Of a stretch of 64,000 nucleotides of DNA, positions 12,295 to 45,591 are shown piece by piece; position 1 is the first letter of the stretch; every line of letters begins with the position of its first letter. The DNA comes from an uncultured bacterium (lineage in GTDB: Bacteria > Verrucomicrobiota > Kiritimatiellia > RFP12 > UBA1067): assembly GCA_902776615.1 (NCBI GenBank), contig CACYQU010000004.1, positions 1,139 to 65,138 on the forward strand. The letters run 5' to 3'. The notes below the pieces were generated by a model. It had not been told where the DNA came from. It made no database searches and saw only the letters and a program-made list of their open reading frames with translations. The position numbers were made by a program, and so were the translations under genes.

Positions 12295-12935
12295 ACTCTT
12301 ATCTCCTCTGGTTTGTCTACTGTTCTGTCTGCCATGGCCAGTTCTTCGGGGGTTCCATAGCCCCACGACGCTCCGACCGATTCAATTCCGTTTTCCTTTG
12401 CCGCGGCAAAGTCGCTCGACGTATCGCCGACGATTGCGCACTCTTCGGGACGAGCCCCGGTTTCGCGCATGATCCGCGCCAGCAGCGCGCCCTTGCGCAG
12501 CTTGCCGATCGCAGGATCGTCCTTGTACATGTCGCCCGCGTAAAGGCCGTCGAAAACATCTGTCCATCCGAACTTCGCCGCTATCGCCTTCGCGCCGGCA
12601 TAACGTTTGTTCGTTACGATGTACACCTTCGAGCCAGCGGCTTTTAGGGCGCGCACGCAATCTATCACGCCAGGATATTCGCAGGTTGTGGGGAAACCGT
12701 CCGAATCGTAGTGACTGCCGAAGCGCTCGCGTATTGCACGGCCCAGCGCGTCGGTATAAATATCCGGGAAAAGAGCCTTGGCCATATCCTCGATCGGCGG
12801 GCCGGCCACAAAGCGCTTGTCGAAATCTGGACACGACAGGCCGAGTTCGTTCATGGCCGTCTTCCACGCAAGGCGGATGTCTCCATCGGTGTCTGCAAGA
12901 GTGCCGTCCAGGTCAAAGAACCAAAATCTCTTCAT
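12291..12935 (-). CDS. HAD-superfamily hydrolase, of the phosphoglycolate phosphatase or beta-phosphoglucomutase type.
   Basis: Motif I FFDLDGTLADTD, motif II VTNK, and motif IV IVGDTSSDFAAA. Confidence 0.85.
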   Translation of the reverse strand: MKRFWFFDLDGTLADTDGDIRLAWKTAMNELGLSCPDFDKRFVAGPPIEDMAKALFPDIYTDALGRAIRERFGSHYDSDGFPTTCEYPGVIDCVRALKAAGSKVYIVTNKRYAGAKAIAAKFGWTDVFDGLYAGDMYKDDPAIGKLRKGALLARIMRETGARPEECAIVGDTSSDFAAAKENGIESVGASWGYGTPEELAMADRTVDKPEEIRV

Positions 12936-13645
12936 CTGAGAAGCCCCTCCTCGGCAGCCTTTATGATAGACAGCGCTTCTTCCGTGCTCGTCGCCTCGTC
13001 CAGGACTTCAAGGAACTCCGTCGCATGCGCCATCAGGGCAAGCCGCGCCAGTATATTGAGATGCTGCACATGGTCGGTGGAGCAAACAAGGAAGAAGTGG
13101 CGCGTGCCTTCACCGTTCGGTGCGCCGAAGAACACGGGCCTGTCGCTTCTTCCGTAGGCTACGAACGACTCCTCGAAAAGGTAAGGGTCGTGAAAACGCG
13201 GATGCATGAACGCGGCGCCCTGACCGACCGCGGTGGATGCCGTGTTCTCACGCTCCATAAGCTCTTTGAACAGACCTTCCTGATCATACACGAGCCCAGT
13301 GCGCCCAGCGAGATCGCTCATGTCGCGGACCATCCCCGCCTTTGCCTTCCCTGGCATCGAAAGGCACATTCCGTCAAGGCGAAAGAGATTCGACACTCGC
13401 CATTCTTCATGACGCAGGCGGCGATCTTCATCCAGTATGGCGTTGTGCTGACGACGAATCTCGCGCCCGTTGGAGGCGAGAAGCCTGCGCTGGGCCCATT
13501 CGTCAAGCGCGCGATGTTCAAACCACCAGTCGCCGCCATGCTCCGACGCCTCGACCTCCCCTCTCTGGGCGGCATGCTTCAACTCGTTCATCTCCAGATG
13601 AACGTGTTCCGCGGCCTGTTTGAGATTGAGCGTCGTTCTTGACAT
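12932..13645 (-). CDS. Fusion of an excisionase-type HTH (HTH_17-like) DNA-binding domain to a PTS EIIA-Ntr/fructose-type (EIIA_2) domain.
   Basis: The N-terminus TLNLKQAAEHVHLEMNELKHAAQRGEVEASEHGGDWWFEHRALDEWAQRRL resembles the excisionase/MerR-like HTH. The C-terminus AVGQGAAFMHPRF...HFFLVCSTDHVQHLNILARLA matches EIIA-Ntr, including the phosphorylatable His region. Confidence 0.8.
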   Translation of the reverse strand: MSRTTLNLKQAAEHVHLEMNELKHAAQRGEVEASEHGGDWWFEHRALDEWAQRRLLASNGREIRRQHNAILDEDRRLRHEEWRVSNLFRLDGMCLSMPGKAKAGMVRDMSDLAGRTGLVYDQEGLFKELMERENTASTAVGQGAAFMHPRFHDPYLFEESFVAYGRSDRPVFFGAPNGEGTRHFFLVCSTDHVQHLNILARLALMAHATEFLEVLDEATSTEEALSIIKAAEEGLLR

Positions 13646-13654
13646 AACTGAGGT

Positions 13655-13666
13655 GTATTATACCTT
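13655..13666 (-). promoter_or_regulatory. -10 box GGTATAATA lying 11 nt upstream of the HTH-EIIA ATG, implying a near-leaderless transcript.
   Basis: The minus strand reads AAGGTATAATacacctcagttATG. Confidence 0.45.
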
Positions 13667-15695
13667 ATTTGCCGCGCAAAGGCAAACATGGGTGTGCGGC
13701 GGAAAGCCCCAGCGCCTTGGATACGGCTTCGCCGTAGGCGCGAGCGAGCGCGACCATGCCGTAATCGTTTGGATGGACACCATCGACAGAACCTTCAAGA
13801 TCATCGGGGTACATTGCGTCCTTCGGCAGATAAACAAGGTTCTTCCAGCCTTCGGCGACAAGCTTGTCGTAAATGGATTTGAGAAGAACGTCCTTCTCAG
13901 TCGGCCCGTTGCAGTACACGTCGCACTGTCCGGCCATGACAATCGGCACGTCGGGACGCTTCGCTCGAAGGTTGCGTATGAACGGCTCGTAGTTCTCGTC
14001 CATGTTGCGTCCCTTGCGAGCGGTTTGATTCGTCGAAAGCCGCATGTTGTGCAGGCAGTCCAAAACATAGCAGCTGGCGTCAATGCGCGCAAGATGTTCA
14101 CTCATCTCGAGTTCCATTACCCCCGACCCGGAAAAGCCCAGATTCACAACAGGCACATCAAGTTCTCGTCCGATGATGTTTACAAAGCTCATCCCGGGTC
14201 GTGATGCGCAGCCGCCATGCGTGATGGATGTCCCGTAAAAGACTACAGGTTTTTCAACGCCGCTTTTGCGCGGGCCTAGGGGCTTCACGACGGCATTCGT
14301 CTCCACACCGAGCGAGAACTCCTTGATGCCGTTGTACAGCGGCAGGTTCACAAGGCACGGCGCGCCGGGGCTCCACGGTATCTCGAGTTGCGCGCCAGAC
14401 GGCTTTTCGATGCGTCCTGTCTTGACATACCGCCAGCGCCCTTTCACCGTGTCGTAGCAGTATACGTCAATGCCGCTCATGCCGGATTTAGGCATATGAT
14501 CCATCGACATCCATCCGCCGTTGTACGGCACCCATTTAAAGACGAGCTTGTTCGAGTCGGTCGAGAAGCGAAACTGCATTCCGGCCGTATGGTGCTTCAT
14601 GTTGCGTACGCCCTCGTTCACGTTTGTGGTGACACCAGACGGCAAACGGTCGTACCAATGGTCCACGTCGCTGAAAGCACGGCCTTCTATCGGCAGACTT
14701 CGTCCATCAATCCATTTGAGGCCGTTGGTGACAACGACGCCATCGGCGCACATGTTGCTGTCGTACCGCGAGACCGAGTCTGGCCCGCCATCTTTCCCGT
14801 CGGTCGGGGTCCGGGCTTTGAATCTGCGGAAGCGCACTGCCATTCCGTCCACAAACATGTCATAGCGCAACAGCGTGTCGGCTCCGATACGGTTCATCGG
14901 CTCCGGCACGACAACCGGCGATATCTCGATTCCATCCGCCACATCCAGAACGCCGGGTGCGCCTGACCGCGGCGACAGGTCGGCGGCGCCGTTTATGTCG
15001 GTGAGAGGCGCGATGGATGCCACGCCTGTAGTCGGCCAGTGCGTATCGGACGACAGCAGCGTCATCGACGAGCCGGAGTCCACAAGCACTTCAAAGCGTC
15101 TGCCGTCGACCGTCGCCGGAAGCAATATGCTCATTGGATCATACTCCAGGCGTTGCACAGCGCGGCCGAATCCGGCGAGGGACTGCGCTCCTGGCGAAAA
15201 GACAATTTCGCCGGCGCCTAGGGATATGATACACGGCACGCGCCCCAAAACGTTCATTCCGATTATGCCGTCCACTTTTACTCCAACCGCCTTTTCAAGA
15301 TGCGAGATGTCCAGCGCCATCACGCCAAAGGTCTCGAAAGCGACCTCCCCGATCTTGAGGCTGCGTACTTGCATGAAGCGCGGAGCGCCCTCTACATTCG
15401 ACTCGCCCATCATCATAACAGGCACGAGCTGCACATCCGGCAGCGATTCCCTGACGAACGACATGTCGAATGTGGTGTGGGTTGCGCCGGTATCAAGAAG
15501 AAGAGTACACCTGACGCCGTTTAGTTCGCCAGCCACGATTGGCATGCGGTTGCCCTGCCGCACGTTCAAAGCCGCGCGACATTCGCCGGCCGGCGCCTTT
15601 TCCGGACGAAACGGGTCGCTTTCCGCGAAAGCGGCGGAAAGCGCCACCGATGAAAACACTGCCGCGACAAAGCGGCGAAAAGCATTGACCTTCAT
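13665..15695 (-). CDS. Secreted multidomain protein with a signal peptide, two tandem retropepsin-like aspartic protease domains, a beta-sandwich (GxDLY-like) domain, and an SGNH/GDSL esterase domain.
   Basis: Signal peptide MKVNAFRRFVAAVFSSVALSAAFA. Protease domain 1 shows LLLDTGATHTTFD...GIIGMNVLG and domain 2 shows VLVDSGSSMTLL. The SGNH block I reads VVFYGTSITHGG and block V reads DGVHPND. The ~190-codon in-frame extension upstream of MKVN is Arg-rich and is discounted. Confidence 0.8.
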   Translation of the reverse strand: MKVNAFRRFVAAVFSSVALSAAFAESDPFRPEKAPAGECRAALNVRQGNRMPIVAGELNGVRCTLLLDTGATHTTFDMSFVRESLPDVQLVPVMMMGESNVEGAPRFMQVRSLKIGEVAFETFGVMALDISHLEKAVGVKVDGIIGMNVLGRVPCIISLGAGEIVFSPGAQSLAGFGRAVQRLEYDPMSILLPATVDGRRFEVLVDSGSSMTLLSSDTHWPTTGVASIAPLTDINGAADLSPRSGAPGVLDVADGIEISPVVVPEPMNRIGADTLLRYDMFVDGMAVRFRRFKARTPTDGKDGGPDSVSRYDSNMCADGVVVTNGLKWIDGRSLPIEGRAFSDVDHWYDRLPSGVTTNVNEGVRNMKHHTAGMQFRFSTDSNKLVFKWVPYNGGWMSMDHMPKSGMSGIDVYCYDTVKGRWRYVKTGRIEKPSGAQLEIPWSPGAPCLVNLPLYNGIKEFSLGVETNAVVKPLGPRKSGVEKPVVFYGTSITHGGCASRPGMSFVNIIGRELDVPVVNLGFSGSGVMELEMSEHLARIDASCYVLDCLHNMRLSTNQTARKGRNMDENYEPFIRNLRAKRPDVPIVMAGQCDVYCNGPTEKDVLLKSIYDKLVAEGWKNLVYLPKDAMYPDDLEGSVDGVHPNDYGMVALARAYGEAVSKALGLSAAHPCLPLRGK

Positions 15696-16951
15696 TCCGC
15701 AATCTCCTTTTGCAATACAGTCGCAATGAAATCGAATCCGCGAACCTTGACGATCTTGATTTGCACAAACTCGCCAACTGGCGGCTCGGAATCGATATAT
15801 GTAACACCGTCCACGTCCGGCGCCTGGCTCTCCATGCGCACAACGCCCGGAGCGACGACAAGAGCACGGAACACCTTGCCGATCATTCTGCGGGACTTCA
15901 CTTTCCAGACGGCTGCCGCCTGGTCCATTACAGCCTTCTCGCGCGCCTCGGCGACATTGCGCGAAGGCCGCCCCTTCATCTTTGCGCCTTTGGTTCCTTC
16001 CTCCGGCGAATACGCGAACGCCCCGAGATGGTCGAACTGCATGCGCGCCAGATCGGCCATCATGCGATTGAACCGCGCCTCCGTTTCGCCCGGGAAACCG
16101 GTCATTATAGTGGTTCGCAGCGTCACGCCCGGCACCAGCGCGCGAAGCGTCTCTGCAGCTGTACGAGTGGCGGCGATTGCGGCTCGGCGATTCATCTTGT
16201 CGAGAACGTACGGATCGGTATGCTGCAGAGGAACGTCGATATATTTCACTGCGTGGCGCGACGAGAGCATCCACACAATGAAGTCTTCGTCGATCTCGCT
16301 CGGATACGAATACAAAACCCGCACCCAGAAATCACCCTTCAAACTGTCGATCTTCCACAGCAGATCCGTCAATGACGGCCCTCCGGACCTGCGCCACTCT
16401 ACACCATAGAGCATTGGATCCTGAGCAACGATGTTGAGTTCTCTGCAACCGCTCTTGAGAAGCGCCCGCGCCTCTTTCAGTATGGCATCGACAGGGCGGC
16501 TTCTGAATCTGCCGCGTATCGCAGGTATCGCGCAATAGGCGCAGCGGTGGGCGCAGCCTTCGGCGATCTTCAAATAGGCGAACGCCTTTCCTGTGAAGCG
16601 CAACGCGGGAATCTTCGGCTCTGTCCAGTCCTTTGGCACACCCTGCCATATGTCGACGCCCGGAAACTTGGCCACGGCCTTGGGGTAGCGCTGCGGATAG
16701 CAGCCGGCCACCACGACCTTGCGGTAGTTTCCCTTGGCCTTCAGCGCAAGGGCACGGGTTATTTCGCATTCCGCCTCCTCGCGGGCGGACGCTATGAAGG
16801 CGCAAGTGTTTACTATGACTGTATCGGCACGGTCGGGATCGGGCGACAACACGCACCCCTTCTTCAAAAGGTCTCCCGCCATTACCTGCAGATCCACGGC
16901 GTTTTTGGCGCAGCCGAGAGAAACGAGCGCGATTGATTCACCTTTCTTCAT
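15692..16951 (-). CDS. rimO: Ribosomal protein S12 methylthiotransferase (MiaB-family radical SAM enzyme).
   Basis: UPF0004 N-terminal domain ALVSLGCAKNAVDLQVM, radical-SAM motif CAHRCAYCAIP, and a C-terminal TRAM domain. The RimO-type N-terminus is MKKGESIALVSLGC. Confidence 0.9.
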   Translation of the reverse strand: MKKGESIALVSLGCAKNAVDLQVMAGDLLKKGCVLSPDPDRADTVIVNTCAFIASAREEAECEITRALALKAKGNYRKVVVAGCYPQRYPKAVAKFPGVDIWQGVPKDWTEPKIPALRFTGKAFAYLKIAEGCAHRCAYCAIPAIRGRFRSRPVDAILKEARALLKSGCRELNIVAQDPMLYGVEWRRSGGPSLTDLLWKIDSLKGDFWVRVLYSYPSEIDEDFIVWMLSSRHAVKYIDVPLQHTDPYVLDKMNRRAAIAATRTAAETLRALVPGVTLRTTIMTGFPGETEARFNRMMADLARMQFDHLGAFAYSPEEGTKGAKMKGRPSRNVAEAREKAVMDQAAAVWKVKSRRMIGKVFRALVVAPGVVRMESQAPDVDGVTYIDSEPPVGEFVQIKIVKVRGFDFIATVLQKEIAE

Positions 16952-18224
16952 ACCAAGTCTCCATTTCCGGCTTGAGGGAGCCCAAAAACTCCGCAAACGG
17001 CGCGTTCTTTGCCGTAGGCACATAATCCACGGCGGGCGGACGGCCCATTTCGCGCGCGACATAATTGTAAGCGAAGTGTTCCAGAGTGCGCCCCATGGCG
17101 CGACAGCTCATGACGAAATCGGTTATTCGCATTGCGACAATGTCAACAACGATATAGCAGACAATCCCCTGCTCGCCGAAACGGTCTGCCGCTTTGAACA
17201 CATAAACGCGCTTTGTGCTGTCGCTCAGCAACGCGGCAAATTCGTCGCGGGTTCGGCGCAGCGTGGTGGCGTTGAATTGGTTTGTCTTGCCTGCCATCTG
17301 CGCAAGCCTGTCCAGGTCGCCATCGCAGGCCAGACGAGGCTCTACGCGCAATTCCAGCGACTTCAGGTAATCTCCGACATTGTCGAAGCACGACATTGTC
17401 GTCTCCGCCGCGCTGCGGGCCGCGTAGCTCGCCGCACGCATGCCATCCTCGGCAGTCTTGCCCATGTCGCGGAAGAAATATTCCTTGAGGCGACGCAGAA
17501 GACATCGTGCCCGGGAATCAGGTCGCGCAGCCCCGTCATTCCACCCGTTCCACGCGACTACGGCGACCTCCGGCAGATGCGCCGCCATCTGCGCCCGTTC
17601 ATGTGGATTGTCATCGACAAAGACGACACTGTCGGTCGACAGATTCAGTTTGCGACAGGCTTCGATGAGATTTCCCGCCTTTGGCGCCCAGTTGATGCAG
17701 CGCGCAGCGAAGTCGCCGTCTTTGAGAGGAAAGTCGCCACGCATAAATTCGTCGCATGGATCATTCTTTGTGAGCAGCACAAGCGTCACGCCGGCTTTTT
17801 TCAACTCAAGAAGCCCCTTCTGGAACTCGACGCACGGCACAAGCGCATCGCGGCCGTCTTCGCTGAGGATTCCATGCCACAGCGTGTTGTCGGCGTCAAC
17901 AGCCAAAACCTTTTTCGGCGCGGCTATGCCGAAATACGAAAACTCCTCGACAAGCGCCTTTATTCCGGCAAGCGAGTATGGCTGAGACGCCAATGTTCGC
18001 ATGCGCTCGTCGAAGAAACCGTCAACCTCGGCCGCCAAGGCTTCGTCATGCGAAGTGACGTCGAAAATCGCATCAGGCTTGAAACGCTTCAACCCGGATG
18101 TCTCGTCGAGCAGCTCCTGCCGCCATGTGCCGAACCCCGCAGGGACATACACATCATGGCCCGCCGCCCTGAAATAAGGCGCAAGCACGTCAAGTGCGAC
18201 ATCCCCGACGAGCGCAAGCTTCAT
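16938..18224 (-). CDS. FkbH-like protein (HAD-IIIC phosphatase domain plus a C-terminal GNAT-like domain).
   Basis: HAD motif I KVLAVDADNTLWHGIL and motif III/IV VVFVDDNPHE. The FkbH-type block is LAQMAGKTNQFNATTLRRTRDEF. Confidence 0.75.
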   Translation of the reverse strand: MKLALVGDVALDVLAPYFRAAGHDVYVPAGFGTWRQELLDETSGLKRFKPDAIFDVTSHDEALAAEVDGFFDERMRTLASQPYSLAGIKALVEEFSYFGIAAPKKVLAVDADNTLWHGILSEDGRDALVPCVEFQKGLLELKKAGVTLVLLTKNDPCDEFMRGDFPLKDGDFAARCINWAPKAGNLIEACRKLNLSTDSVVFVDDNPHERAQMAAHLPEVAVVAWNGWNDGAARPDSRARCLLRRLKEYFFRDMGKTAEDGMRAASYAARSAAETTMSCFDNVGDYLKSLELRVEPRLACDGDLDRLAQMAGKTNQFNATTLRRTRDEFAALLSDSTKRVYVFKAADRFGEQGIVCYIVVDIVAMRITDFVMSCRAMGRTLEHFAYNYVAREMGRPPAVDYVPTAKNAPFAEFLGSLKPEMETWYEER

Positions 18225-18225
18225 C

Positions 18226-19449
18226 TTACATCGCCTTCGCCAATGCTGCGCCGAACTCCGAGCATTTCACTTCGGTCGCGCCATCCATCTGGCGGGCGAA
18301 GTCGTAGGTGACGGTCTTGGCGGCGATCACCTTGTCCATCGCGGCAATGATGAGGTCGGCGGCTTCGGTCCAGCCCATGTACCTCAACATCATCTCGCCG
18401 GAAAGGATGAGCGAACCGGGGTTGACCTTGTCCAGCCCGGCGTACTTGGGCGCGGTTCCATGCGTCGCCTCGAATACGGCCACGCCTGTCTGGTAGTTTA
18501 TGTTGGCGCCGGGCGCTATTCCGATTCCGCCGACTGTCGCGGCCAGCGCGTCCGAGACGTAGTCGCCGTTCAGATTCAGCGTAGCTATTACATCGTACTC
18601 GGCAGGACGGGTAAGTATCTGCTGCAGGAACGCATCGCATATGCAGTCCTTCACCGTGATCGTGCGGCCGGTCTTGGGGTTCTTGAATTCGCACCACGGT
18701 CCATCGCCGATCAGGCTCGCCCCGTATTCGCGGCGTGCAAGCGCATAGCCCCAGTCCCTGAATGCGCCCTCGGTGAACTTCTGTATGTTTCCCTTGTGCA
18801 CAAGAGTCACCGACTTGCGGTCGTTGTCGATCGCGTAGTCAAGCGCCGCGCGCACAAGGCGCTCGGTACCCTCAAGGCTGACAGGCTTGATCCCGATCGA
18901 AGCCGTCTTGGGGAATCGTATCTTGCGCACGCCCATTTCGTCCAGAAGGAACTTCTTCACCTTCTCGACTTCGGCGGTTCCGTTCATCCATTCGATTCCG
19001 GCGTAGATGTCTTCCGTATTCTCGCGAAAGATCACCATGTCGGTGAGTTCGGGGCGCTTCACGGGAGAGGGCACCCCCTTGAACCACCGCACTGGACGCA
19101 GACACACGTACAGATCAAGCTCCTGGCGCATGGCTACGTTTATGGATCTTATTCCTCCCCCTACGGGCGTGGTGAGGGGGCCTTTGATGGATACGAGGCA
19201 ATCTCTGCAAGCGTCTAGCGTCGCTTGCGGCAGCCACTCGCCCGTCGCCTTGAAAGCCTTTTCTCCGGCAAGCACTTCCCGCCACTCTATCTTCCGCTTG
19301 CCGCCGTATGCCTTATCTACCGCGGCATTCCAGACCAGCATCGCCGCACGGGTGATGTCAGGTCCAGTGCCGTCGCCCTCGATGAAAGGTATTACCGGAT
19401 TCGCGGGAACGCACAGCCTCCCGCCCTGCAAAGTGATTTTGTCGCTCAT
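18226..19449 (-). CDS. icd: NADP-dependent isocitrate dehydrogenase (prokaryotic homodimeric type).
   Basis: The N-terminus [37 protein letters not shown] matches Icd, and the IDH/IMDH fold runs throughout. At 407 aa. Confidence 0.97.
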
Positions 19450-19524: not shown

Positions 19525-21552
19525 TCAGGGCAATGGTGAAGTGGGCGACTCCATACGCCGCATCTCATAGGGTGCAAGCGAGAGCGAACGTGTTGCGCCA
19601 GTAGTGTGGTCGCAATATTCAACGGTCTGCGCACGACCGGTAAGATTCGCGGCCAGCAGTACGATCGCGCCATTCGATGTGCGCCACCAGTTGCCGACGA
19701 CATCCGTCATTTCGGCGAACTTGCTCGGCGGCAGCTTGAATGTCTTGTCGAAAAGGCGAAAGTGCGGACGGCGTCCAAGCCATTCATAGACCGTCGTGCC
19801 GACAGGTCCGGCAAAACGCAGTTCATCCAGCAGATTCCCGTATGCAAGAGCATCGAGGTTCGCTTGGCGAAATGCACACAGCTCGCGCAGTATCTCGCAC
19901 TTCGCAGGCCTGTCCAGGATGTCGGGCAGGAACCATCCAAGCGAATTGCCCCACAGCAATTCGCGCGTCTGGAGGGCCCGGAATGCATCGGGCTCGTCAT
20001 CGTTGTTCTCCGGACTGCAGAAGTAGGTTGTGTAGCCCGAATAGACGGCGTTGTGGAACGGAACATCCTCAGGCGTACGCTCCACTACTTGCAAATAGCC
20101 GTCAACCATACCTATATACGCTTCGCCCGAACCCTCTGTGGTCACGAACGCACCCTTCTCGTTCCAGGCGCGGCGGATGGGCGCGAGCGCCGCAGAGTAT
20201 CCATCGTACCACCACGAGCCGCCGCCGACTGGATGCCCGTGGGCCGGGTCGTAGCATGCGCAACCTTCCGCCGCCCCAACCTGATCAATGAAAACCGATT
20301 GCGCGCCAAGTTCGTCAAGCATGCGCGAAGTGAAGCCAAGCAGCACCTTGTGCCATTCGGGACGGCTTGGACACATCACGGCAAGCTCCGGCGTCCACGG
20401 GGCATACTTCTCTATGTGGCGCGTACCGTTCGCACGCATCACGGAATATGGCTCGGCCAAAAGGAATCCGCTTGTGGTCGCAGTCCAGAGGCGCCCGTTT
20501 GTGTAGAACATTGGCTCCTGCCCGATGGATTTGCAGAATGCGACGCATTCCTTGGTGCCGGGCTGCTCGGGGAAATACTCCGGATAGTTCACATCGTGCC
20601 CGGAATGTTGCCAAAGATGCCAATGGAGGCCTGTCGTCCAGTCCGGGAAGATCGCCTTGGCCCGCGCGAGCGTGTTCGACACGACATCCGGGTGACCGTG
20701 GATGTTTATCCAAAGGGGAATCTCGCAAATGCGATGCGGATAGCCGGGAATATCCTTTATCGGGCCTTTCGCGGTCCATTTCTGCTTCAGTGCGAAGTCG
20801 CGGTAGCGTCTGGCGGCGGCCCACCAGTCACCCTTGAGAGGCGAAAGAACCACACTGTAGCGAGGCCCCTCGGCGCCAAGCTCGACAGGCGTTTCGAAGC
20901 GAATGTTCTGTTCGCCCTCCACATACATGCGCTTGATTCGCGCGTCAGGGTCTTCGGCGGCGATGTAAAGGCCATCGTCGCCAATGAAGAACGCCGCCAC
21001 CATCGGTGCGTAACCCAAATAGTCGAAACGTCTGCGCTTCTTGGACGAGTGCTTCTTGTAAAGTCGCGCCCCATGGTCTCTCCACGGCAGCATGGCGTCG
21101 CCCTCGCCGTCGCGCGTAACACGGGCAAGGCGCGGAAAGTCCGTCGAAAACAGTCTCCAGTCCGACGAGCGGCAGTCGAATGAAATCCGCCACGACTGCG
21201 AACCGTCCGATCGCCGCTCGATATCGACGCGGGCGTCAAGAACGCCGTGCACGCCGTCCAGCGGAATGTCACGCCACAGCAGGGTTTCGCCGCCATCGCG
21301 TTCGACGCGCTCGAACGATGCGGCGTCGTGCGCCGCGACAGCCGCACGCACGCAGATGTTCGTAGACGCCGCAAACTCGGCAGACCAGACATCTCCTCCG
21401 CCCGTAGCGAATTCGGCCGAGCCTACGCATATCGAACGGAGTTCCCCGCCGCCGTCCAGCCGAACATCCATCTGCGCCAAGGCGGACGCCCCGGCCGAGA
21501 CACACAGAGCGGCACATGCGGCACAGTACCAAATCCTGCGAAGCCAGTCCAT
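19525..21552 (-). CDS. Secreted hypothetical protein of about 675 aa, possibly glycoside-hydrolase-like. The start is at MDWLRR..., which carries the signal peptide.
   Basis: Signal peptide MDWLRRIWYCAACAALCVSAGASALA. It is a large, well-conserved-looking ORF with high GC3. No diagnostic catalytic motif was recognised. Confidence 0.7.
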   Translation of the reverse strand: MDWLRRIWYCAACAALCVSAGASALAQMDVRLDGGGELRSICVGSAEFATGGGDVWSAEFAASTNICVRAAVAAHDAASFERVERDGGETLLWRDIPLDGVHGVLDARVDIERRSDGSQSWRISFDCRSSDWRLFSTDFPRLARVTRDGEGDAMLPWRDHGARLYKKHSSKKRRRFDYLGYAPMVAAFFIGDDGLYIAAEDPDARIKRMYVEGEQNIRFETPVELGAEGPRYSVVLSPLKGDWWAAARRYRDFALKQKWTAKGPIKDIPGYPHRICEIPLWINIHGHPDVVSNTLARAKAIFPDWTTGLHWHLWQHSGHDVNYPEYFPEQPGTKECVAFCKSIGQEPMFYTNGRLWTATTSGFLLAEPYSVMRANGTRHIEKYAPWTPELAVMCPSRPEWHKVLLGFTSRMLDELGAQSVFIDQVGAAEGCACYDPAHGHPVGGGSWWYDGYSAALAPIRRAWNEKGAFVTTEGSGEAYIGMVDGYLQVVERTPEDVPFHNAVYSGYTTYFCSPENNDDEPDAFRALQTRELLWGNSLGWFLPDILDRPAKCEILRELCAFRQANLDALAYGNLLDELRFAGPVGTTVYEWLGRRPHFRLFDKTFKLPPSKFAEMTDVVGNWWRTSNGAIVLLAANLTGRAQTVEYCDHTTGATRSLSLAPYEMRRMESPTSPLP

Positions 21553-21553
21553 G

Positions 21554-22816
21554 TCAATCGACGAACGGGGAGAAGTCGAGAGTCGCAAAATAGTCGTCAA
21601 GAGTTTCGGCGCGGCGTATCTCGCGCACAGATCCATCAGACTCGAGAAGCAGTTCGGCGGAGCGCAGTTTGCCGTTGTACTGAAAACCCATCGCATGGCC
21701 GTGCGCACCCGCGTCGCATATGACTACGAGGTCGCCGGGCGCAAGAACAGGCAGCATACGCTGAATCGCGAACTTGTCGTTGTTCTCGCACAGGGATCCT
21801 GTTACGTCATACACGCTCGTCTCGCCCGAATCTTCTTTGCCCGGCACGACTATTTCGTGATATGCTCCGTAAAGCGCGGGACGCATCAGATTCGACATGC
21901 ACGCATCAAGCCCGGCATACAGGCGGTATGTGTTCTTTATGTGCAAAACGCGCGAAACAAGATACCCGTACGGACCTGTTATGCACCGGCCGCACTCCAT
22001 GAACAACTTCAGCGGATTAAGCCCGGCGGCGGCTATCGTATCATTGTAGGCCTTTTCGATTCCTTCACCCACCTTGAAGATGTCCATCGCCTGCTGGTCG
22101 GGACGGTAGGGAATGCCGATTCCTCCTCCTATGTTCACGAACTCGAAAGCAATGCCCAGCTCCGACGAAACAGCCACAACAAGATCGAACAGCATCTTCG
22201 CCGTGTCGATGATATACTCCGGGTCGAGTTCGTTCGAAGCCACCATCGCATGCAGGCCGAAGCGAGTGACGCCCGCCGCCTTCATCTTGGCGTAGCACTC
22301 GAAAAGCTGAGCGCGCGTCATACCGTACTTTGCCTCCTCGGGCTTGCCGATTATCGCATTTCCGCCCTTAAGCGGCCCGGGATTGTACCTGCAGCAGAAC
22401 ACGCGCCCGTCAAACCCTTCCGGATGCACGGCATCCACGAAAGCCTCCCAGTGCGTCGTGTCGTCGAAGTTTATTATGGCTCCAAGCTCCCAGGCGCGGC
22501 GGAACTCGTCCGCCGGCGTGTCGTTGGACGTGAACATTATGGCTTCGCCGGTGTTGCCGACCTTCGCGGCAAGTTCGAGTTCGGCCATTGACGAGCAGTC
22601 GCTTCCGAAATTGAAATCCTTCAAGAGTTTCATCAGATGCGGATTGGGGGCCGCTTTCACTGCAAAGTACTCGCGGAAGCCCTTGTTCCACGCAAACGCC
22701 TTGTTCAGTCTTTTGGCGTTTTCGCGTATCGCCTTGGCGTCGTAGATATGGAACGGCGTCGGCCACTTTGACGCGATTTCTTCAAGCTTCGCTTTGTCGA
22801 ACGGAAGTTTTCTCAT
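21554..22816 (-). CDS. lysA: Fold-type III PLP-dependent decarboxylase, most like diaminopimelate decarboxylase.
   Basis: The PLP-Lys region is EYFAVKAAPNPHLMKLL. The C-terminal block CDAGAHGHAMGFQYNGKLRSAELL resembles the LysA GAYG..M.S.YN motif. At 420 aa. Carboxynorspermidine decarboxylase is not excluded. Confidence 0.7.
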   Translation of the reverse strand: MRKLPFDKAKLEEIASKWPTPFHIYDAKAIRENAKRLNKAFAWNKGFREYFAVKAAPNPHLMKLLKDFNFGSDCSSMAELELAAKVGNTGEAIMFTSNDTPADEFRRAWELGAIINFDDTTHWEAFVDAVHPEGFDGRVFCCRYNPGPLKGGNAIIGKPEEAKYGMTRAQLFECYAKMKAAGVTRFGLHAMVASNELDPEYIIDTAKMLFDLVVAVSSELGIAFEFVNIGGGIGIPYRPDQQAMDIFKVGEGIEKAYNDTIAAAGLNPLKLFMECGRCITGPYGYLVSRVLHIKNTYRLYAGLDACMSNLMRPALYGAYHEIVVPGKEDSGETSVYDVTGSLCENNDKFAIQRMLPVLAPGDLVVICDAGAHGHAMGFQYNGKLRSAELLLESDGSVREIRRAETLDDYFATLDFSPFVD

Positions 22817-39191: not shown

Positions 39192-42100
39192 TTACCTGAC
39201 GATGATCATCATGCCAGGAGGCTCCGGCGCCCACTCAAGCTTGATGGTCTTGCCGACGAAATTTGTCTCGCTGTAGTCGAATTCCCTTCCGCTTTGGAAC
39301 GAACCCATCTTCTCCCAGTTGCCGTTCTCAAGCTCATAATAAAGGCGATAGCCAGCAACATCTTTGAGGTTTCCTTTGACGTCCTTGACCTTCGTCGCGG
39401 TGAACATCCAGCTTCCCTCGACCTTGTACGCGCCAGTCGCCTCGGCAAGCTCCTCCGCATCGCCCGCAACATCGGCGTACTTCGTCGTCACCAGTACGTT
39501 CGTCACGCCCAGCTCGCCGAAGTAGCGCGCGCTATCGACATTGCGGTTGCGGACGAGTTCCTCCTGCGTGAGAATGCGGTCGTAGAAGCGGAAGTCCTTC
39601 ACGGTGCCGACAAGGTAGCTGTCGGCTCCGCCGCCCCAGCCGCCGAGGGCCAGCTTGCCGACGTGGGCATCGGCCATCGACGACCGCTCCAGATATCCGT
39701 CCGCGATGGTTCCTCCGGTCGGCGGCTCGGTCCCCGTGAACACGGTCGCAGTGCGCTCGGCGTCGTCCAGCATCGTCGTCACGTAGGTGAAGCGCTCGGC
39801 ATCCGCGTTGGCGACATGTGGCATGTCATTGTGCGAATTAAGCCCCTGCGTGTGGAACCAGACTGTCTTGGGATTGGAGGTGCCGCAGATAACCAGCGCC
39901 ATTTTGCTCCAAGCGGAGGAATAGACGTAGTTCTCGCCATTGCCCGCCTTGTTATCGTCATAGAGGGCGTCCAGAACGGTCTGCTCCGTATAGGTCCGGT
40001 TCCAGACGTTCGATACCGCCGTCATGAACTTGCTCTTGCCGCCGAAGGCATAGCCGTCCGACGCCCAGGCGCTGTCGTCGTCACCCTTGGTGAGGCTCAT
40101 GTTGTAGTAGTCTCCGCCCGAACCGACGTTGACCCACTTCGAGGCGGTCGTGCTGTGCGCCACGCCGACGCCGGCGTTGAGAAGGCCGTCGTAGTGGAGG
40201 CGGAGCCCGGCGGGCGAGTAGTCGTCGAAGCCGTAGTCCGAGGCGGTGCGAAGGCCGCGCACGGGACGCCAGCGCCATGTGAGGCGGACGGCGCCTGCGG
40301 AGGTGGAGTAGGCGTAGGAGCAGGAATCGTAGGAGACGGGATTCGTCCACTCCGCACCGCTCCGCTGCTCAAGGATGTAGCCGTCGCAGACGTAGGTGAT
40401 GCCATTCGTGGCCGTCACGCTCTCCGGCGCGACGAAGGTGTAGGAGCCGACGACCTCGTAGCCGCCGCACTTGTCGTAGCCTTCGATGTAGGAGTAGGTC
40501 GATTGGACAATGACGTTCGGTTCGGCGTAGCGCCCGAAGTACCGGTATTCGTCGACCTTGCGGTTCTTAGCGACCTCGGCGTCGGTGAGCGCGCGGTTGT
40601 AGAGGCGAAAATCGTGGAGCGTCCCGTTAAAGCTCTGGAGGTTGGCGGCGTCCCCGGAGCGTCCGTGGAAGCCTCCGACGCTGAACCAGGTCACGTTGGT
40701 CGCCGGGGAGTCACCATCGATGGCCGGGGCGTCGGTGCCGCCGGCTGCCGGCCGCGCGGTGCCGCCGAAGATGTAGGTGGTCTTGGTGTCGTCATAATCG
40801 GCGATCACGGTCACGTAGGACGGCCTTGCGCCCGCCGGGTAGAAGTTGGGGCGCGCGTCCGGGTGGACGGTCGAGTTCACATAGTAAACGCTGTTGGCGT
40901 TGCCGTTCGCGGCGCTGTTGTTCGACTTGCGCATCGCAACGCTGCCATAGCTCCATCCGTGCTGGCCCGTCCAAAGGTAGGCGGGGTCGCCAAGCTGGTC
41001 GGCAATGGCACCCGTCACCGAAATCTGCACCGTGAAATTGGCGGGGACAGCAAACGGATCGCCATCGTTCCACTTGGCGAAATAGGACTTGCCGTTGAAG
41101 GCGAAGCCGTTCTCCGCCCACTCGCCCTGCGCGGCGCTGTTGCGGGCCCATGCGTAATTGCCGGCGGTATTTTCGAGATAGGAGCACCGGTCCATCGGCC
41201 AGCGGGCCGCGTAGCCGGGCGCGATGTTCTTCCACTGCATGGCGGCGGAGTCGTGCGCCGCGTCCGCGCCGACGTTGCGGATGCCGTCGTAGTGCAGGAG
41301 AAGACCGTCGGTCACATAGTCGTCCAGACCGTAGATCGCAAGCGAGCCTTCGCCAGGGACGGTGGAGTATTGCCAGGTGATGCGGACCTTCCCGGAAGAC
41401 GTCGCGGTGCAGGACGATTCGCCGTCGTGCGAAACGGGTTCTCCCCAATCGGAGTCGTTCCAGGTTTCCAGCGTGTAGCCGGAAAGGACGTGGCGCTTGC
41501 CGTTCACGGTGCGCTGCGCAGGGGCGGTAAACGTGAAACCCTCTGCGTCAAGCGCGTAGGCGCCGCACGGCTGATCGCCCTCGGCGCCGGGCGCGCTCGT
41601 GGCGACGACCACGTTCGTCATGGGAATCGGCGCGGAGGCGCGGAAAAAGCGCCATTCGTCGATCACGCGGTTCCACGCGAGGTCTTCCCCAGAGAGCGCC
41701 TTGGAGTAGTAGCGGATGGCGTGGAGTGTGCCGTTGAATGACTGGAGGGAGTTGCTGGCTTTTCTCGTGCGCGGCGGGTTGTCGTATTGAGAGCCGATCG
41801 CGAACCAGGGGTTGACGTCCTCCGCCGTCCTCGAACCGGCCTTGTAGGAGTTGCCGCCGGTCGAAGCCGTCGGAATCTCCGTTCCCTCGAAGACCCGGAT
41901 GGCTACCGTATCGGAGAGGATGGTCGCGTAGCGGGGATTGGCGTTCGAAAAGTTGGGGCGCGGCGTGTTGGCGCCGAAGCGGGTCCTGTCGATGGCGTAG
42001 ACGGCGTTCGCGGGCGTGGTGGAGCCGTTTGAGCCGTTTTCGGACTGGCGGATGGCGACGGCCCCGTATTCCCAGCCCTTCCCGGGCCGGAAGATGTAGC

Positions 42101-42578: not shown

Positions 42579-42603
42579 TTTGGCAGTTCCTTCCTTTGTG
42601 CCT

Positions 42604-42616
42604 ATATTATACCATA
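42604..42616 (-). promoter_or_regulatory. Extended -10 TGGTATAAT, about 30 nt upstream of the LamG-protein ATG and followed by a ribosome-binding site AAGGAAGGA.
   Basis: The minus strand reads TTTATGGTATAATATAGGCACAAAGGAAGGAACTGCCAAAATG. Confidence 0.45.
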
Positions 42617-42704
42617 AACTTACTTCCAATATTCGCGAATAGTCGTTATTTGGACTTACGCCCGATGGCCGCCACAGCCCACCCATTGATATCGCGACGA
42701 GAAT

Positions 42705-42714
42705 AATGTATAAT
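42705..42714 (+). promoter_or_regulatory. Extended -10 TGTATAAT, about 30 nt upstream of rph and divergent from the LamG promoter.
   Basis: The plus strand reads GAATAATGTATAATCTCTCCCGC...ATG. Confidence 0.4.
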
Positions 42715-42743
42715 CTCTCCCGCAAAGCAAAGGTCAACAAGAT

Positions 42744-43460
42744 ATGAAAACCATAAAGCAGAAAGCGCAAAGCCGCAAAAGCAACCAGCTTCGTCCAATC
42801 GAGTTCGTCCGCAATTTCACAAAGCATGCCGCGGGGAGCGTGCTTGTCAAATGGGGCGACACGTGGGTTCTCTGTACGGCAAGCGTGGAAGACAAGGTGC
42901 CTCCCTTCTTGAAGGATACAGGGAAAGGCTGGATAACTGCGGAATACTCGATGCTGCCATCATCCACCTGTGGCGGACGCAAAGATCGCGACATCAAGAA
43001 GCTGAAACAAGATGCGCGCTCCACGGAGATCCAGCGCCTTATCGGACGCTCCCTGCGAGCGGCGGTCGATATGTCAAAGCTTGGCGAACGCCAGATTACA
43101 ATCGACTGCGACGTGCTTCAAGCCGACGGCGGAACACGCTGCGCTTCGATAACAGGCGGAATGGTCGCCCTGCAAGACGCCATCGACAAACTGGTCGCAA
43201 GCGGAGTGCTGCACGAAAGTCCAATTGTCCATCGTGTCGCCGCAGTGTCTGTCGGCGTATGCGACGGCAAGCCGACGCTCGATCTCGATTACGCCCACGA
43301 TTCCACTGCAGAGGTCGATTTGAACGTCGTCATGACAGACGATGGGCGATACGTTGAACTTCAGGGCACGGCGGAGCACAAGCCTTTCACGGAGGAATCG
43401 CTTGACGCCCTGCGCACTTTGGCCCGCAACGGGCTCAAAAAGATATTCGCCCTCATGTAG
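42744..43460 (+). CDS. rph: Ribonuclease PH
   Basis: RNase PH family motifs ...RPIEF..., [42 protein letters not shown] and [22 protein letters not shown]. At 238 aa. Confidence 0.95.
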
Positions 43461-45579: not shown

Positions 45580-45591
45580 GATCCTTTCGTG

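What the first reader, a model, noticed from the sequence alone, without database searches (positions are those of the whole stretch)
13665..15695. Secreted fusion of two tandem retropepsin-like aspartic protease domains with an SGNH/GDSL esterase
Behind a signal peptide the protein carries two consecutive retropepsin-type domains (DTGA and DSGS catalytic triplets, plus a GIIGMNVLG flap-like segment). Together these could form a pepsin-like pseudo-dimer within one chain. They are followed by a beta-sandwich linker domain and a complete SGNH hydrolase, with the block I Ser in GTSITHGG and the block V DGVHPND. Bacterial retropepsin-like domains are usually single-domain proteins that must dimerise. 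A covalent tandem pair joined to a carbohydrate-esterase-type domain is an unusual bifunctional secreted enzyme, conceivably a peptidase plus deacetylase acting on glycoprotein or peptidoglycan.
Basis: partly seen in the sequence, partly recalled or inferred. Interest (0 to 1): 0.55.

Follow-up and report, generated by a model that had tools for sequence, protein, structure and literature searches.

The report
Secreted tandem-retropepsin protease fused to esterase
A rumen or gut Kiritimatiellae bacterium has joined two otherwise separate secreted enzymes, a single-chain two-lobed aspartic protease and a carbohydrate-esterase-like SGNH hydrolase, into one real 676-residue protein; this is a species-level variant built from known but uncharacterised families, not a new kind of system.

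Summary
The minus-strand ORF at 13665-15695 encodes 676 aa: a signal peptide, two retropepsin-like lobes (D68-T-G-A and D206-S-G-S), a variable 20-residue linker, a GxDLY beta-sandwich and an SGNH domain (S490, N550, D638, H641).

- **The fusion is real.** At least 14 distinct 676-aa variants occur on more than 25 public contigs. None has an indel and all keep the catalytic residues.
- **The two lobes are an internal duplication.** hhalign gives E = 2.4e-9. AlphaFold (pLDDT 89.6, pTM 0.85) folds them as one bilobal unit. It matches the B. fragilis putative endopeptidase 9iy9, whole pepsins and plasmepsins, and tethered HIV protease dimers.
- **The tandem pair is not unusual.** It is a stand-alone secreted family of about 300 aa (818 clusters at 50% identity).
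- **The esterase module is also normally stand-alone.** It is usually a protein of about 380 aa, up to 85% identical to this one.
- **The fusion is rare and recent.** None of 85 relatives' loci has the esterase next to the protease gene. A sister clade fuses the same protease module behind a GH78 rhamnosidase.

Most likely this is a tethered two-enzyme export product. Synergy on a glycoconjugate is possible but unshown. The finding is of modest interest.

The parts
13665..15695 (-). Complete coding sequence of the fusion protein (676 aa plus stop)
   Evidence: ORF and translation. The same 676-aa frame occurs in L001 with 45 nucleotide differences and no indel, and in at least 14 distinct variants.
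15704..15709 (-). Shine-Dalgarno-like AAGGAG, 8 nt upstream of the ATG. The ATG (15695-15693) overlaps the TGA of the upstream RimO/MiaB-like gene (15694-15692).
   Evidence: Read directly from the sequence; upstream gene identified by Pfam.
15624..15695 (-). Sec-type signal peptide, residues 1-24 (MKVNAFRRFVAAVFSSVALSAAFA, with AFA|E as the likely cleavage site). There is no lipobox Cys.
   Evidence: Read from the sequence. Predicted as a low-confidence helix in the model. Homologues carry equivalent N-termini. The cleavage site is inferred.
15186..15578 (-). Retropepsin-like lobe 1, residues about 40-170. Catalytic D68 lies in DTGA (15494-15483). The hydrophobic-hydrophobic-Gly motif GIIGMNVLG lies at 15269-15243.
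   Evidence: Pfam PF13650 on the isolated lobe, E = 1.6e-10. D68, T69, G70 and G146 are invariant in 49 sequences.
14817..15158 (-). Retropepsin-like lobe 2, residues about 180-293. Catalytic D206 lies in DSGS (15080-15069). NRIGADTLL is the counterpart of the lobe-1 Gly motif.
   Evidence: RVP 20.7 bits, equal to the gathering score, on the isolated lobe. DDI1 and ASPRV1 retropepsin domains are hit by the family profile. Lobe 1 against lobe 2 by hhalign: probability 96%, E = 2.4e-9. D206 is invariant.
14751..14816 (-). Linker, residues about 294-315 (KARTPTDGKDGGPDSVSRYDSN). It replaces the signal peptide that the stand-alone esterase carries.
   Evidence: Comparison with P0004. pLDDT drops to about 50 at the end of the N-terminal model. 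This region and the ends have the highest density of variable columns, 0.20.
14289..14720 (-). GxDLY beta-sandwich (CBM-like), residues 326-469. The GIDVY motif is at 14474-14460.
   Evidence: Pfam PF14607, E = 1e-28. The model matches CBM35 and CBM6 folds and the N-terminal domains of 4lhs, SsfX3 and CtCE2.
13728..14255 (-). SGNH hydrolase domain, residues 481-656. Block I is S490 (14228-14226), block II is GFSGSG 520-525, block III is N550 (14048-14046), and block V is D638 (13784-13782) with H641 (13775-13773).
   Evidence: Pfam PF14606, E = 1e-43. PDB 4lhs, E = 7e-36. S490, N550, D638 and H641 are invariant in 42 homologues and in 14 fusion variants.

Best explanation
This is a genuine, lineage-specific gene fusion in a rumen or gut Kiritimatiellae bacterium.

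**How it arose (inferred).** A copy of a conserved secreted GxDLY+SGNH esterase gene landed directly downstream of the conserved tandem-retropepsin (TRP) gene, which follows IDH, a 428-aa protein and RimO. The TRP stop codon and the esterase signal peptide were then lost.

**What it makes (inferred).** One Sec-exported chain carries two independent catalytic modules joined by a flexible linker of about 20 residues.
- The N-terminal module is a single-chain bilobal aspartic endopeptidase. Two diverged retropepsin lobes each contribute one Asp (D68, D206) to a cleft at their interface, as in pepsin or a tethered HIV protease dimer.
- The C-terminal module is a CE2-like two-domain esterase: a CBM-like beta-sandwich plus an SGNH domain with the S490/D638/H641 triad and the G523/N550 oxyanion hole. 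It most plausibly removes O-acyl (acetyl) groups from glycans.

**What is shown and what is not.** The architecture, its integrity across a population, conservation of the catalytic residues, the predicted folds, and the origin from two stand-alone genes are shown. Catalytic activities, substrates, cellular location beyond Sec export, and any cooperation between the halves are inferred. My default reading is that each half does what its stand-alone orthologue does, and that the fusion mainly secures co-export and co-localisation.
For: **Integrity of the fusion**
- One ORF with a ribosome-binding site.
- The same frame occurs in L001 from another sample, with 45 nucleotide differences and no indel. 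dN/dS is 0.33 for the protease half and 0.08 for the esterase half.
- The 90% cluster holds 18 members, of which 15 were listed and 14 are full-length 676-aa variants, found on more than 25 contigs.
- Variable columns concentrate in the signal peptide, linker and tail. All catalytic residues are invariant.

**Protease module**
- Pfam hits.
- D68, T69, G70, G146 and D206 are invariant in 49 homologues.
- Lobe 1 against lobe 2 by hhalign gives E = 2.4e-9.
- The AF2 model has pLDDT 89.6 and pTM 0.85.
- Foldseek matches 9iy9 (E = 4.6e-13, TMq 0.64). Whole-chain plasmepsins, renin and pepsin follow (TMq about 0.55), then the tethered or single-chain HIV protease dimers 1hvc and 4eq0.
- The family profile hits 9iy9 at E = 5.9e-11 across both DTG motifs.

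**Esterase module**
- PF14607 and PF14606; 4lhs at E = 7e-36.
- The AF2 model has pLDDT 85.6 and pTM 0.88.
- Foldseek matches 4lhs, SsfX3 and the CE2 esterase CtCE2.
- All SGNH block residues are invariant.

**Origin**
- Stand-alone TRP genes sit at the same RimO locus in L002, L003/4 and L007.
- Stand-alone esterase orthologues (up to 85% identical) sit elsewhere.
- The junction falls exactly at the mature N-terminus of the stand-alone esterase P0004.
Against: - No member of either family has a demonstrated hydrolytic activity. A 2022 review lists PF14606 as a family without known function (PMC9487903).
- The only characterised structural relative of the esterase, SsfX3, is an acyltransferase.
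- The protease half is less constrained than the esterase half. dN/dS is 0.33 against 0.08, and variable-column density is 0.06-0.13 against 0.04.
- The fusion is confined to one 90%-identity cluster, so it could be a neutral accident.
- The Asp-Asp geometry was not measured, because model coordinates cannot be read with these tools.
- No full-length model was made.
Confidence: 0.7

Rival explanations
1. The fusion is a cooperative glycoconjugate-degrading enzyme. The esterase half strips O-acetyl groups and binds the glycan through its beta-sandwich. This holds the protease half on the protein core of a plant or host glycoprotein or proteoglycan, such as an arabinogalactan protein, a pectin-linked wall protein or a mucin. 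The fusion is then selected for proximity.
For: - The same TRP module is independently fused behind a complete GH78 alpha-L-rhamnosidase in a sister clade (L009, L010, L011, L070). There too the junction removes a signal peptide.
- Close esterase homologues are fused to GH28 (P0102) and GH125 (P0079) domains.
- The esterase fold resembles the CE2 carbohydrate esterase, and its beta-sandwich resembles CBM35 and CBM6.
- The hosts are rumen and gut bacteria.
Against: - In 85 relatives' loci no esterase homologue lies within 4-5 kb of the TRP gene, so there is no conserved functional linkage.
- TRP is also fused to unrelated partners: a tyrosine phosphatase, TPR repeats and a BSP peptidase.
- Each CAZyme fusion is confined to one shallow clade.
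- Secreted neighbours in these genomes are often CAZymes anyway (GH95 in L002), so two such fusions may reflect base rate.
- The gene lies among housekeeping genes.
Confidence: 0.22
2. The protein is a polyprotein-like precursor. After export, the aspartic protease cuts the flexible linker, in cis or in trans, and releases two separate enzymes. The fusion then serves only to lend the esterase a signal peptide.
For: - The esterase half has lost its own signal peptide, and the linker is the most variable and least confidently modelled region.
- Self-processing is reported for the retroviral-like ASPRV1, as shown in the abstract of PMC11402058. It is also known for retroviral proteases (own knowledge).
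Against: - There is no direct evidence.
- No recognisable cleavage motif is known for this family.
- Stand-alone TRP proteins have no such linker to process.
Confidence: 0.2
3. The protein is a cell-envelope maintenance enzyme. The halves would act as a periplasmic endopeptidase and an O-acetyl esterase for peptidoglycan or another envelope polymer.
For: - The stand-alone TRP gene is a conserved gene in a housekeeping neighbourhood (IDH, 428-aa protein, RimO) across many Kiritimatiellae.
- The esterase family is unusually conserved, with 69% mean column identity.
- The secreted single-domain retropepsin-like RloA proteases of P. aeruginosa affect cell shape and beta-lactam and osmotic tolerance (PMC12239564).
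Against: - No peptidoglycan esterase or acetyltransferase appears among the 50 best fold matches of the esterase module.
- Esterase homologues are fused to glycoside hydrolases.
- No envelope-biogenesis genes are adjacent in the window.
Confidence: 0.1
4. The fusion is an artefact: two adjacent genes joined by a sequencing or assembly error, or a decaying pseudogene.
For: The architecture is seen in only one 90%-identity cluster.
Against: - At least 14 distinct 676-aa variants from NCBI, ENA and Logan assemblies occur on more than 25 contigs. None has an indel.
- dN/dS is below 1 in both halves.
- The esterase half has no start codon with a ribosome-binding site and no signal peptide of its own.
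Confidence: 0.02
5. The tandem retropepsin module is non-catalytic. It would be a pepsin-fold binding or inhibitor-like domain, like the plant pepsin-fold glycosidase inhibitors, that merely targets or regulates the esterase.
For: - Lobe 2 is strongly diverged, reaching only the gathering score on its own.
- The protease half evolves faster than the esterase half.
Against: - Both catalytic Asp residues and the DTG triplet are invariant across 49 homologues down to about 21% identity. This would not be expected for a binding-only domain.
Confidence: 0.05

Closest known systems
PDB 9iy9, 'putative endopeptidase' / 'Exported protein' of Bacteroides fragilis (420 aa, released 2025)
   Same: It is homologous by sequence profile (E = 5.9e-11) across both DTG-type motifs. 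It is also the best structural match (E = 4.6e-13, TMq 0.64). Like this protein, it is an exported single chain with two retropepsin-like lobes.
   Different: It is only 15% identical. It carries an extra N-terminal region of about 165 residues and has no esterase. No paper on it was found in the library, so its activity is unknown to me.
Stand-alone tandem-retropepsin proteins of Kiritimatiellae ('aspartyl protease family protein', about 290-320 aa; e.g. P0121, P0122, P0126)
   Same: They are 55-64% identical over the whole module and have the same signal peptide type and the same invariant D68, T69, G70, G146 and D206. They occupy the same chromosomal position after RimO.
   Different: They end 0-25 codons after lobe 2. 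None has an esterase fused or nearby.
Single-domain bacterial retropepsin-like proteases (RloA1-3 of P. aeruginosa, RimB, APRc of Rickettsia)
   Same: They belong to clan AA, have the retropepsin fold and a DTG/DSG active site. The RloA proteins also have signal peptides (PMC12239564; PMC4140852 listed).
   Different: They contribute one Asp per chain and must dimerise; the paper describes a C2 pseudosymmetric dimer. Here the two lobes are covalently linked and have diverged (16% identity between lobe profiles).
Pepsin family A1 (pepsin, renin, plasmepsins) and engineered tethered HIV-1 protease dimers (1hvc, 4eq0)
   Same: They have the same bilobal single-chain arrangement. Foldseek aligns the whole module to them (TMq about 0.55 for pepsin-family enzymes; TMt 0.53-0.60 for the HIV constructs).
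   Different: There is no sequence match to the Pfam pepsin model (absent at E <= 1). The lobes are retropepsin-sized, about 115-130 residues, so this module is about 270 aa against about 325 aa. It is best read as a separate duplication of a retropepsin-like domain.
PF14607+PF14606 two-domain proteins: 4lhs (BACOVA_00914, Bacteroides ovatus) and SsfX3 (3skv)
   Same: They share the beta-sandwich plus SGNH architecture. 4lhs matches at E = 7e-36 by sequence and TMq 0.74 by fold. SsfX3 matches at TMq 0.71.
   Different: 4lhs is uncharacterised. SsfX3 is a cytoplasmic salicylyl-acyltransferase of an antibiotic pathway and is only 17% identical. The protein here is exported and fused to a protease.
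CAZy family CE2 esterases (CtCE2, 2wao/2wab)
   Same: They have an N-terminal jelly-roll beta-sandwich followed by an SGNH esterase domain. The fold match covers both domains (E about 1e-12, TMq 0.56-0.60).
   Different: They are 12-13% identical, with no sequence-level hit. CE2 enzymes are described as using a Ser-His dyad (own knowledge). Here the block V Asp (D638) is present and invariant.

Membership tests
Clan AA retropepsin-like aspartic peptidases (Pfam Asp_protease_2 / RVP) | Significant match of each lobe to a retropepsin-type profile | tested here: met
   Lobe 1: PF13650 at E = 1.6e-10, 42 bits against a gathering score of 24.3. Lobe 2: RVP at 20.7 bits, equal to the gathering score. 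Lobe 2 also matches the DDI1 retropepsin domain at E = 1.7e-5 with the family profile.
Clan AA retropepsin-like aspartic peptidases (Pfam Asp_protease_2 / RVP) | Catalytic Asp-Thr/Ser-Gly triplet in each half, and the downstream hydrophobic-hydrophobic-Gly motif | tested here: met
   D68-T-G and D206-S-G are present. D68, T69, G70, G146 and D206 are invariant, and G271 is at least 90% conserved, in 49 homologues. The motifs align lobe to lobe.
Clan AA retropepsin-like aspartic peptidases (Pfam Asp_protease_2 / RVP) | Two lobes packed as a (pseudo)dimer with the Asp residues facing each other | tested here: inconclusive
   The model has pTM 0.85 and gives whole-chain matches to 9iy9, pepsin-family enzymes and tethered HIV protease dimers. 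These imply the arrangement. The Asp-Asp distance could not be measured because coordinates are not readable.
Clan AA retropepsin-like aspartic peptidases (Pfam Asp_protease_2 / RVP) | Peptidase activity dependent on the two Asp residues, and inhibitor sensitivity | not testable with these tools
   This needs expression and assay.
TIGR02281 clan_AA_DTGA subfamily | Score above the NCBIfam cut-off | tested here: not met
   19.7 bits against a cut-off of 57.95.
Pepsin family A1 | Sequence match to the pepsin-family profile | tested here: not met
   No pepsin-family Pfam model appears among hits at E <= 1. The resemblance is structural only.
SGNH hydrolase superfamily, Lipase_GDSL_3 (PF14606) with GxDLY (PF14607) | Profile matches above the gathering score for both domains | tested here: met
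   PF14606 scores 150.1 bits and PF14607 scores 100.5 bits, each against a gathering score of 27.
SGNH hydrolase superfamily, Lipase_GDSL_3 (PF14606) with GxDLY (PF14607) | Conserved blocks I (Ser), II (Gly), III (Asn) and V (Asp-x-x-His) | tested here: met
   S490 in GTS, GFSGSG at 520-525, N550, and D638-G-V-H641. All are invariant in 42 homologues and in 14 fusion variants.
SGNH hydrolase superfamily, Lipase_GDSL_3 (PF14606) with GxDLY (PF14607) | Alpha/beta SGNH fold preceded by a beta-sandwich | tested here: met
   The AF2 model has pLDDT 85.6. Foldseek matches 4lhs at TMq 0.74 and SsfX3 at 0.71. This rests on a predicted structure, not a solved one.
SGNH hydrolase superfamily, Lipase_GDSL_3 (PF14606) with GxDLY (PF14607) | Esterase (or acyltransferase) activity and substrate | not testable with these tools
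   The family was listed as having no member of known function in 2022 (PMC9487903).
CAZy CE2 | Sequence membership in the CE2 family | tested here: not met
   No CE2-specific Pfam hit and no PDB sequence hit to CE2 chains. There is only a fold-level match at 12-13% identity.

The most novel reading that the evidence does not exclude
The tandem-retropepsin module may be a glycan-dependent aspartic 'glycoprotease' that rumen Kiritimatiellae repeatedly weld onto carbohydrate-active enzymes. Two such fusions are seen: GH78 rhamnosidase-TRP in one clade and TRP-SGNH acetylesterase here. Together they would dismantle plant-wall or host proteoglycans such as arabinogalactan proteins, pectin-linked proteins or mucins. 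That would be the first aspartic-type member of the glycoprotein-targeting peptidases. It would also be a natural bacterial example of the duplication-and-fusion route from retropepsin to a pepsin-like enzyme.
Probability: 0.12. Interest if true: 0.7.

Novelty: new variant of a known kind. Interest (0 to 1): 0.35.

Why it matters
- **Two unstudied families.** Both modules belong to large families of gut and rumen bacteria that have no characterised hydrolase. These are the single-chain tandem retropepsins (818 clusters at 50% identity, one unpublished crystal structure) and the GxDLY+Lipase_GDSL_3 esterases.
- **A hint at shared location.** A natural fusion suggests that both enzymes act in the same extracytoplasmic compartment. 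The parallel GH78 fusion hints at a possible link between this protease family and glycan breakdown.
- **Relevance to pepsin evolution.** The tandem module is a living bacterial example of a duplicated, diverged retropepsin that forms a pepsin-like bilobal enzyme. This bears on the classical duplication-fusion model for the origin of pepsins.
- **Limits.** Multidomain secreted enzymes are commonplace in these bacteria, and this particular fusion is confined to one species-level lineage.

Tried and rejected
- **Full-length alignment for structure prediction.** A mixed alignment of the fusion with stand-alone proteases and stand-alone esterases (A2) was misaligned: MAFFT stretched the protease sequences over the esterase half. 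I discarded it. The two halves were modelled separately, so inter-module packing is unknown.
- **Conserved adjacency.** I looked for protease and esterase genes adjacent in relatives as the pre-fusion state. None was found in 86 loci other than the fusion's own sibling L001. The nearest stand-alone esterases sit in unrelated contexts.
- **Long ORFs at TRP loci.** L053 is a spurious upstream extension. L034 and L075 were not resolved; P0249 suggests that L034 is a tyrosine-phosphatase fusion. Only the GH78 fusion was verified.
- **Literature.** There were no hits for 9IY9 and none for GxDLY. I found no paper on bacterial tandem retropepsins.
- **Signal-peptide remnant.** Reading the linker DNA by eye in other frames for a remnant of the esterase signal peptide gave nothing convincing.
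- **NCBIfam.** It gave only a sub-threshold TIGR02281 hit.
- **Frameshift or artefact reading.** Rejected on population evidence.
Full report
**1. Observation**

The minus strand carries one open frame whose real start is the ATG at 15695. It ends at the stop codon at 13667-13665 and encodes 676 aa. AAGGAG lies 8 nt upstream. The ATG overlaps the TGA of the preceding RimO/MiaB-like radical-SAM gene as ATGA. The longer 869-aa frame listed merely runs on into that gene.

- Asp_protease_2, E = 2e-14, two stretches.
- gag-asp_proteas.
- RVP, best stretch 194-275.
- GxDLY, residues 326-469, E = 1e-28.
- Lipase_GDSL_3, residues 481-656, E = 1e-43.

**2. Is the fusion real?**

Yes.
- The same 676-aa frame occurs on a contig from another sample (L001). 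It differs at 45 of 2031 nucleotides and has no indel. Nei-Gojobori dN/dS is 0.33 for the protease half (12 synonymous and 12 non-synonymous changes) and 0.08 for the esterase half (14 and 4).
- The 90% cluster has 18 members. Of the 15 listed, 14 are distinct full-length 676-aa variants, seen on more than 25 contigs from NCBI, ENA and Logan assemblies.
- Aligned, these variants have 50 variable columns and no gaps. Variation is densest in the signal peptide (0.21 per site), the linker (0.20) and the C-terminal tail (0.27). It is lowest in lobe 1 (0.06), the beta-sandwich (0.04) and the SGNH domain (0.04). Lobe 2 is intermediate (0.13).
- Every catalytic residue is invariant.

This is the signature of a folded multidomain protein under selection. 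It is not a frameshift artefact or a pseudogene.

**3. The N-terminal module**

About 120 close homologues (90% clusters) are stand-alone proteins of 290-320 aa, each with its own signal peptide. They are mostly unnamed or labelled 'aspartyl protease family protein [Kiritimatiellae]'. In an alignment of 49 of them, reaching down to about 21% identity, the invariant positions are D68, T69, G70, G146 and D206.

The two halves are homologous to each other. Profile-profile comparison gives probability 96% and E = 2.4e-9. It aligns DTGA with DSGS, and GIIGMNVLG with NRIGADTLL. GIIGMNVLG is therefore the conserved Gly motif that follows the active site in retropepsins, not a flap (own knowledge of the HIV-1 protease motif IIGRNLL).

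AlphaFold2 with this alignment gives one compact body, with mean pLDDT 89.6 and pTM 0.85. Foldseek against the PDB returns, in order:
- 9iy9, a 2025 crystal structure of a putative endopeptidase from Bacteroides fragilis (E = 4.6e-13, TMq 0.64).
- Whole-chain plasmepsins, renins and pepsins (TMq about 0.55).
- The pepsin-like domain of M. tuberculosis Rv0977.
- The tethered and single-chain HIV-1 protease dimers 1hvc and 4eq0.

The family profile also finds 9iy9 by sequence (E = 5.9e-11), aligned through both DTG motifs. Lobe 2 alone matches DDI1 and ASPRV1 retropepsin domains.

The pseudo-dimer idea is thus well supported.

**4. The C-terminal module**

Residues 316-676 are 70-85% identical to hundreds of stand-alone, signal-peptide-bearing proteins of about 380 aa from Kiritimatiellae. 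S490, N550, D638 and H641 and the Gly-rich block II are invariant.

The only sequence relatives with structures are 4lhs (BACOVA_00914, uncharacterised, E = 7e-36) and, weakly, SsfX3. The AlphaFold2 model (pLDDT 85.6, pTM 0.88) matches the following:
- 4lhs (TMq 0.74).
- SsfX3 (TMq 0.71).
- The CE2 carbohydrate esterase CtCE2 over both domains (TMq 0.56-0.60).

The beta-sandwich alone resembles CBM35 and CBM6. A 2022 review lists PF14606 among SGNH families without a member of known function (PMC9487903).

Close homologues occur fused to GH28 (P0102) and GH125 (P0079) domains, and as tandem doublets (P0002, P0003). An exported glycan O-acyl esterase is the most economical inference. It remains an inference.

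**5. How the fusion arose, and its context**

In relatives, the stand-alone tandem-retropepsin (TRP) gene sits at the same place as here, after isocitrate dehydrogenase, a 428-aa protein and RimO. Its downstream neighbour differs each time: GH95, DUF192 or a VIT protein. One relative has the gene in another context.

The closest stand-alone esterases lie elsewhere, among unrelated genes. The fusion junction coincides with the mature N-terminus of the stand-alone esterase: '...SVSRYDSNMCADGVVVTNG' aligns with P0004 '...AVEKFDENMAAPGVVVTNG' immediately after its signal peptide.

Of the 87 loci held at that point, 80 are GTDB species, mostly rumen and gut Kiritimatiellae, with distant copies in Akkermansia and Spyradenecus. 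Only L001, the fusion's own sibling, has an esterase homologue within 4-5 kb of the TRP gene. Apart from that locus, no TRP gene has a C-terminal extension. The fusion is therefore a recent event in one lineage, not the sealing of a conserved operon.

The window itself is a core chromosomal region. It carries rpoB and rpoC, IDH, RimO, a PLP-dependent decarboxylase, a pyruvate formate-lyase-like enzyme, a PTS EIIA-like gene and a HAD phosphatase. It is not a polysaccharide-utilisation locus.

**6. A parallel fusion**

Four closely related GTDB genomes (L009, L010, L011, L070; 96-98% identical to each other) encode an 1104-1114-aa protein. It consists of a signal peptide, a complete GH78 alpha-L-rhamnosidase, a linker, and the TRP module starting exactly at its mature N-terminus 'GDPFRS'. 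Again one signal peptide has been lost at the junction.

The exhaustive search of 1.84 billion representatives found 818 TRP clusters, overwhelmingly 270-350 aa. Occasional fusions are to a tyrosine phosphatase, TPR repeats, a BSP peptidase, or a second TRP.

So the module is fusion-prone with diverse partners. Two of the closest cases involve carbohydrate-active enzymes. That is suggestive, but it is also what one would expect in genomes where many secreted neighbours are CAZymes.

**7. Mechanism proposed**

- *Shown:* an intact, selected, Sec-signal-bearing chain with two catalytically complete modules and a variable linker.
- *Inferred:* after export, the bilobal module cleaves peptide bonds with D68 and D206 at the lobe interface. 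The SGNH module hydrolyses O-acyl esters with S490, D638 and H641, and its beta-sandwich contributes glycan binding.

My default is that the halves act independently and that the fusion gives co-export and co-localisation. The rivals are:
- true cooperation on a glycoconjugate (about 0.2);
- autoprocessing of the linker to release two enzymes (about 0.2);
- an envelope-maintenance role (about 0.1);
- a non-catalytic protease-fold domain (about 0.05);
- an artefact (about 0.02).

**8. Comparison with known systems**

The protein works like a single-chain version of the dimeric bacterial retropepsin-like proteases. RloA of P. aeruginosa, for example, is secreted and forms a C2 pseudosymmetric dimer (PMC12239564). 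It also works like a miniature pepsin.

By sequence it belongs to clan AA retropepsin-like families. It is not in pepsin family A1 (no hit), nor in TIGR02281 (19.7 bits against a cut-off of 57.95).

The esterase is a bona fide PF14607+PF14606 member. It resembles CE2 in architecture but is not a CE2 member by sequence.

**9. Verdict**

The tandem protease, however, is a common stand-alone family with a solved homologue.

What is unusual is only its junction to the esterase. That junction is real and under selection, but it is restricted to one species-level cluster. I class it as a new variant of known kinds, with modest interest (0.35).

The more interesting lead is the whole uncharacterised tandem-retropepsin family and its recurrent fusion to glycan-active enzymes.

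**10. What led nowhere**

- The mixed full-length alignment was misaligned and was abandoned, so no full-length model exists.
- Searches for 9IY9, for GxDLY and for tandem bacterial retropepsins in the literature found nothing relevant.

Noticed in passing
L010:1493-4837 (+); also L009, L011, L070: These loci encode an 1104-1114-aa secreted protein. It is a complete GH78 alpha-L-rhamnosidase (Bac_rhamnosid_N, Bac_rhamnosid, 6H and C domains) fused through a short linker to the tandem-retropepsin module. The module starts exactly at its mature N-terminus, with its signal peptide lost. This is an independent second fusion of the protease module to a carbohydrate-active enzyme, in the closest GTDB relatives (60-62% identity).
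   Followed up: partly
P0002 (760 aa) and P0003 (754 aa): These proteins consist of two complete GxDLY+SGNH esterase modules in tandem. Other close homologues carry GH28 plus beta-helix (P0102), GH125 (P0079) or sigma-70 region-4 domains (P0009, P0010, P0013). The sigma-70 cases may be merged gene calls.
   Followed up: no
window 15692-19449 (-) and loci L001, L002, L003, L007: There is conserved synteny of isocitrate dehydrogenase, a 428-aa protein, a RimO/MiaB-like radical-SAM enzyme and the tandem retropepsin gene across several Kiritimatiellae. Genes overlap at their boundaries. The 428-aa protein (window 16938-18224) has only a sub-threshold HAD-hydrolase hit and is otherwise unannotated.
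   Followed up: partly
window 12932-13645 (-): The gene immediately downstream encodes a 237-aa protein with a PTS EIIA-2 domain at residues 102-230. An unassigned N-terminal region of about 100 residues precedes it. A HAD phosphatase and a secreted DUF3472 protein follow.
   Followed up: no
window 39192-42827 (-) and 44401-46716 (+): Two large ORFs have almost no family assignment. One is 1211 aa with only a partial Laminin_G_3 hit. The other is 771 aa with no Pfam hit at E <= 1e-5. The second overlaps antisense ORFs and may not be a real gene.
   Followed up: no
window 19525-21708 (-): This 727-aa protein carries a DUF6259 domain. It is conserved at the same position in L001, where the product on record is 492 aa with a faint Apionate_lact_C hit. 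It may be glycan-related.
   Followed up: no
L005:5001-10900: In one relative the stand-alone tandem-retropepsin gene sits in a different context. It lies directly after a Peptidase_U32 gene and upstream of three small unannotated genes and a secretin gene. This could hint at a secretion- or pilus-related role for some family members.
   Followed up: no
P0249 (616 aa), P0335 (539 aa), P0331 (572 aa), P0256 (927 aa): The tandem-retropepsin module has other fusion partners elsewhere. These are an N-terminal tyrosine phosphatase (Y_phosphatase3), a C-terminal BSP-family peptidase, C-terminal TPR repeats, and a doubled module with four retropepsin domains.
   Followed up: partly
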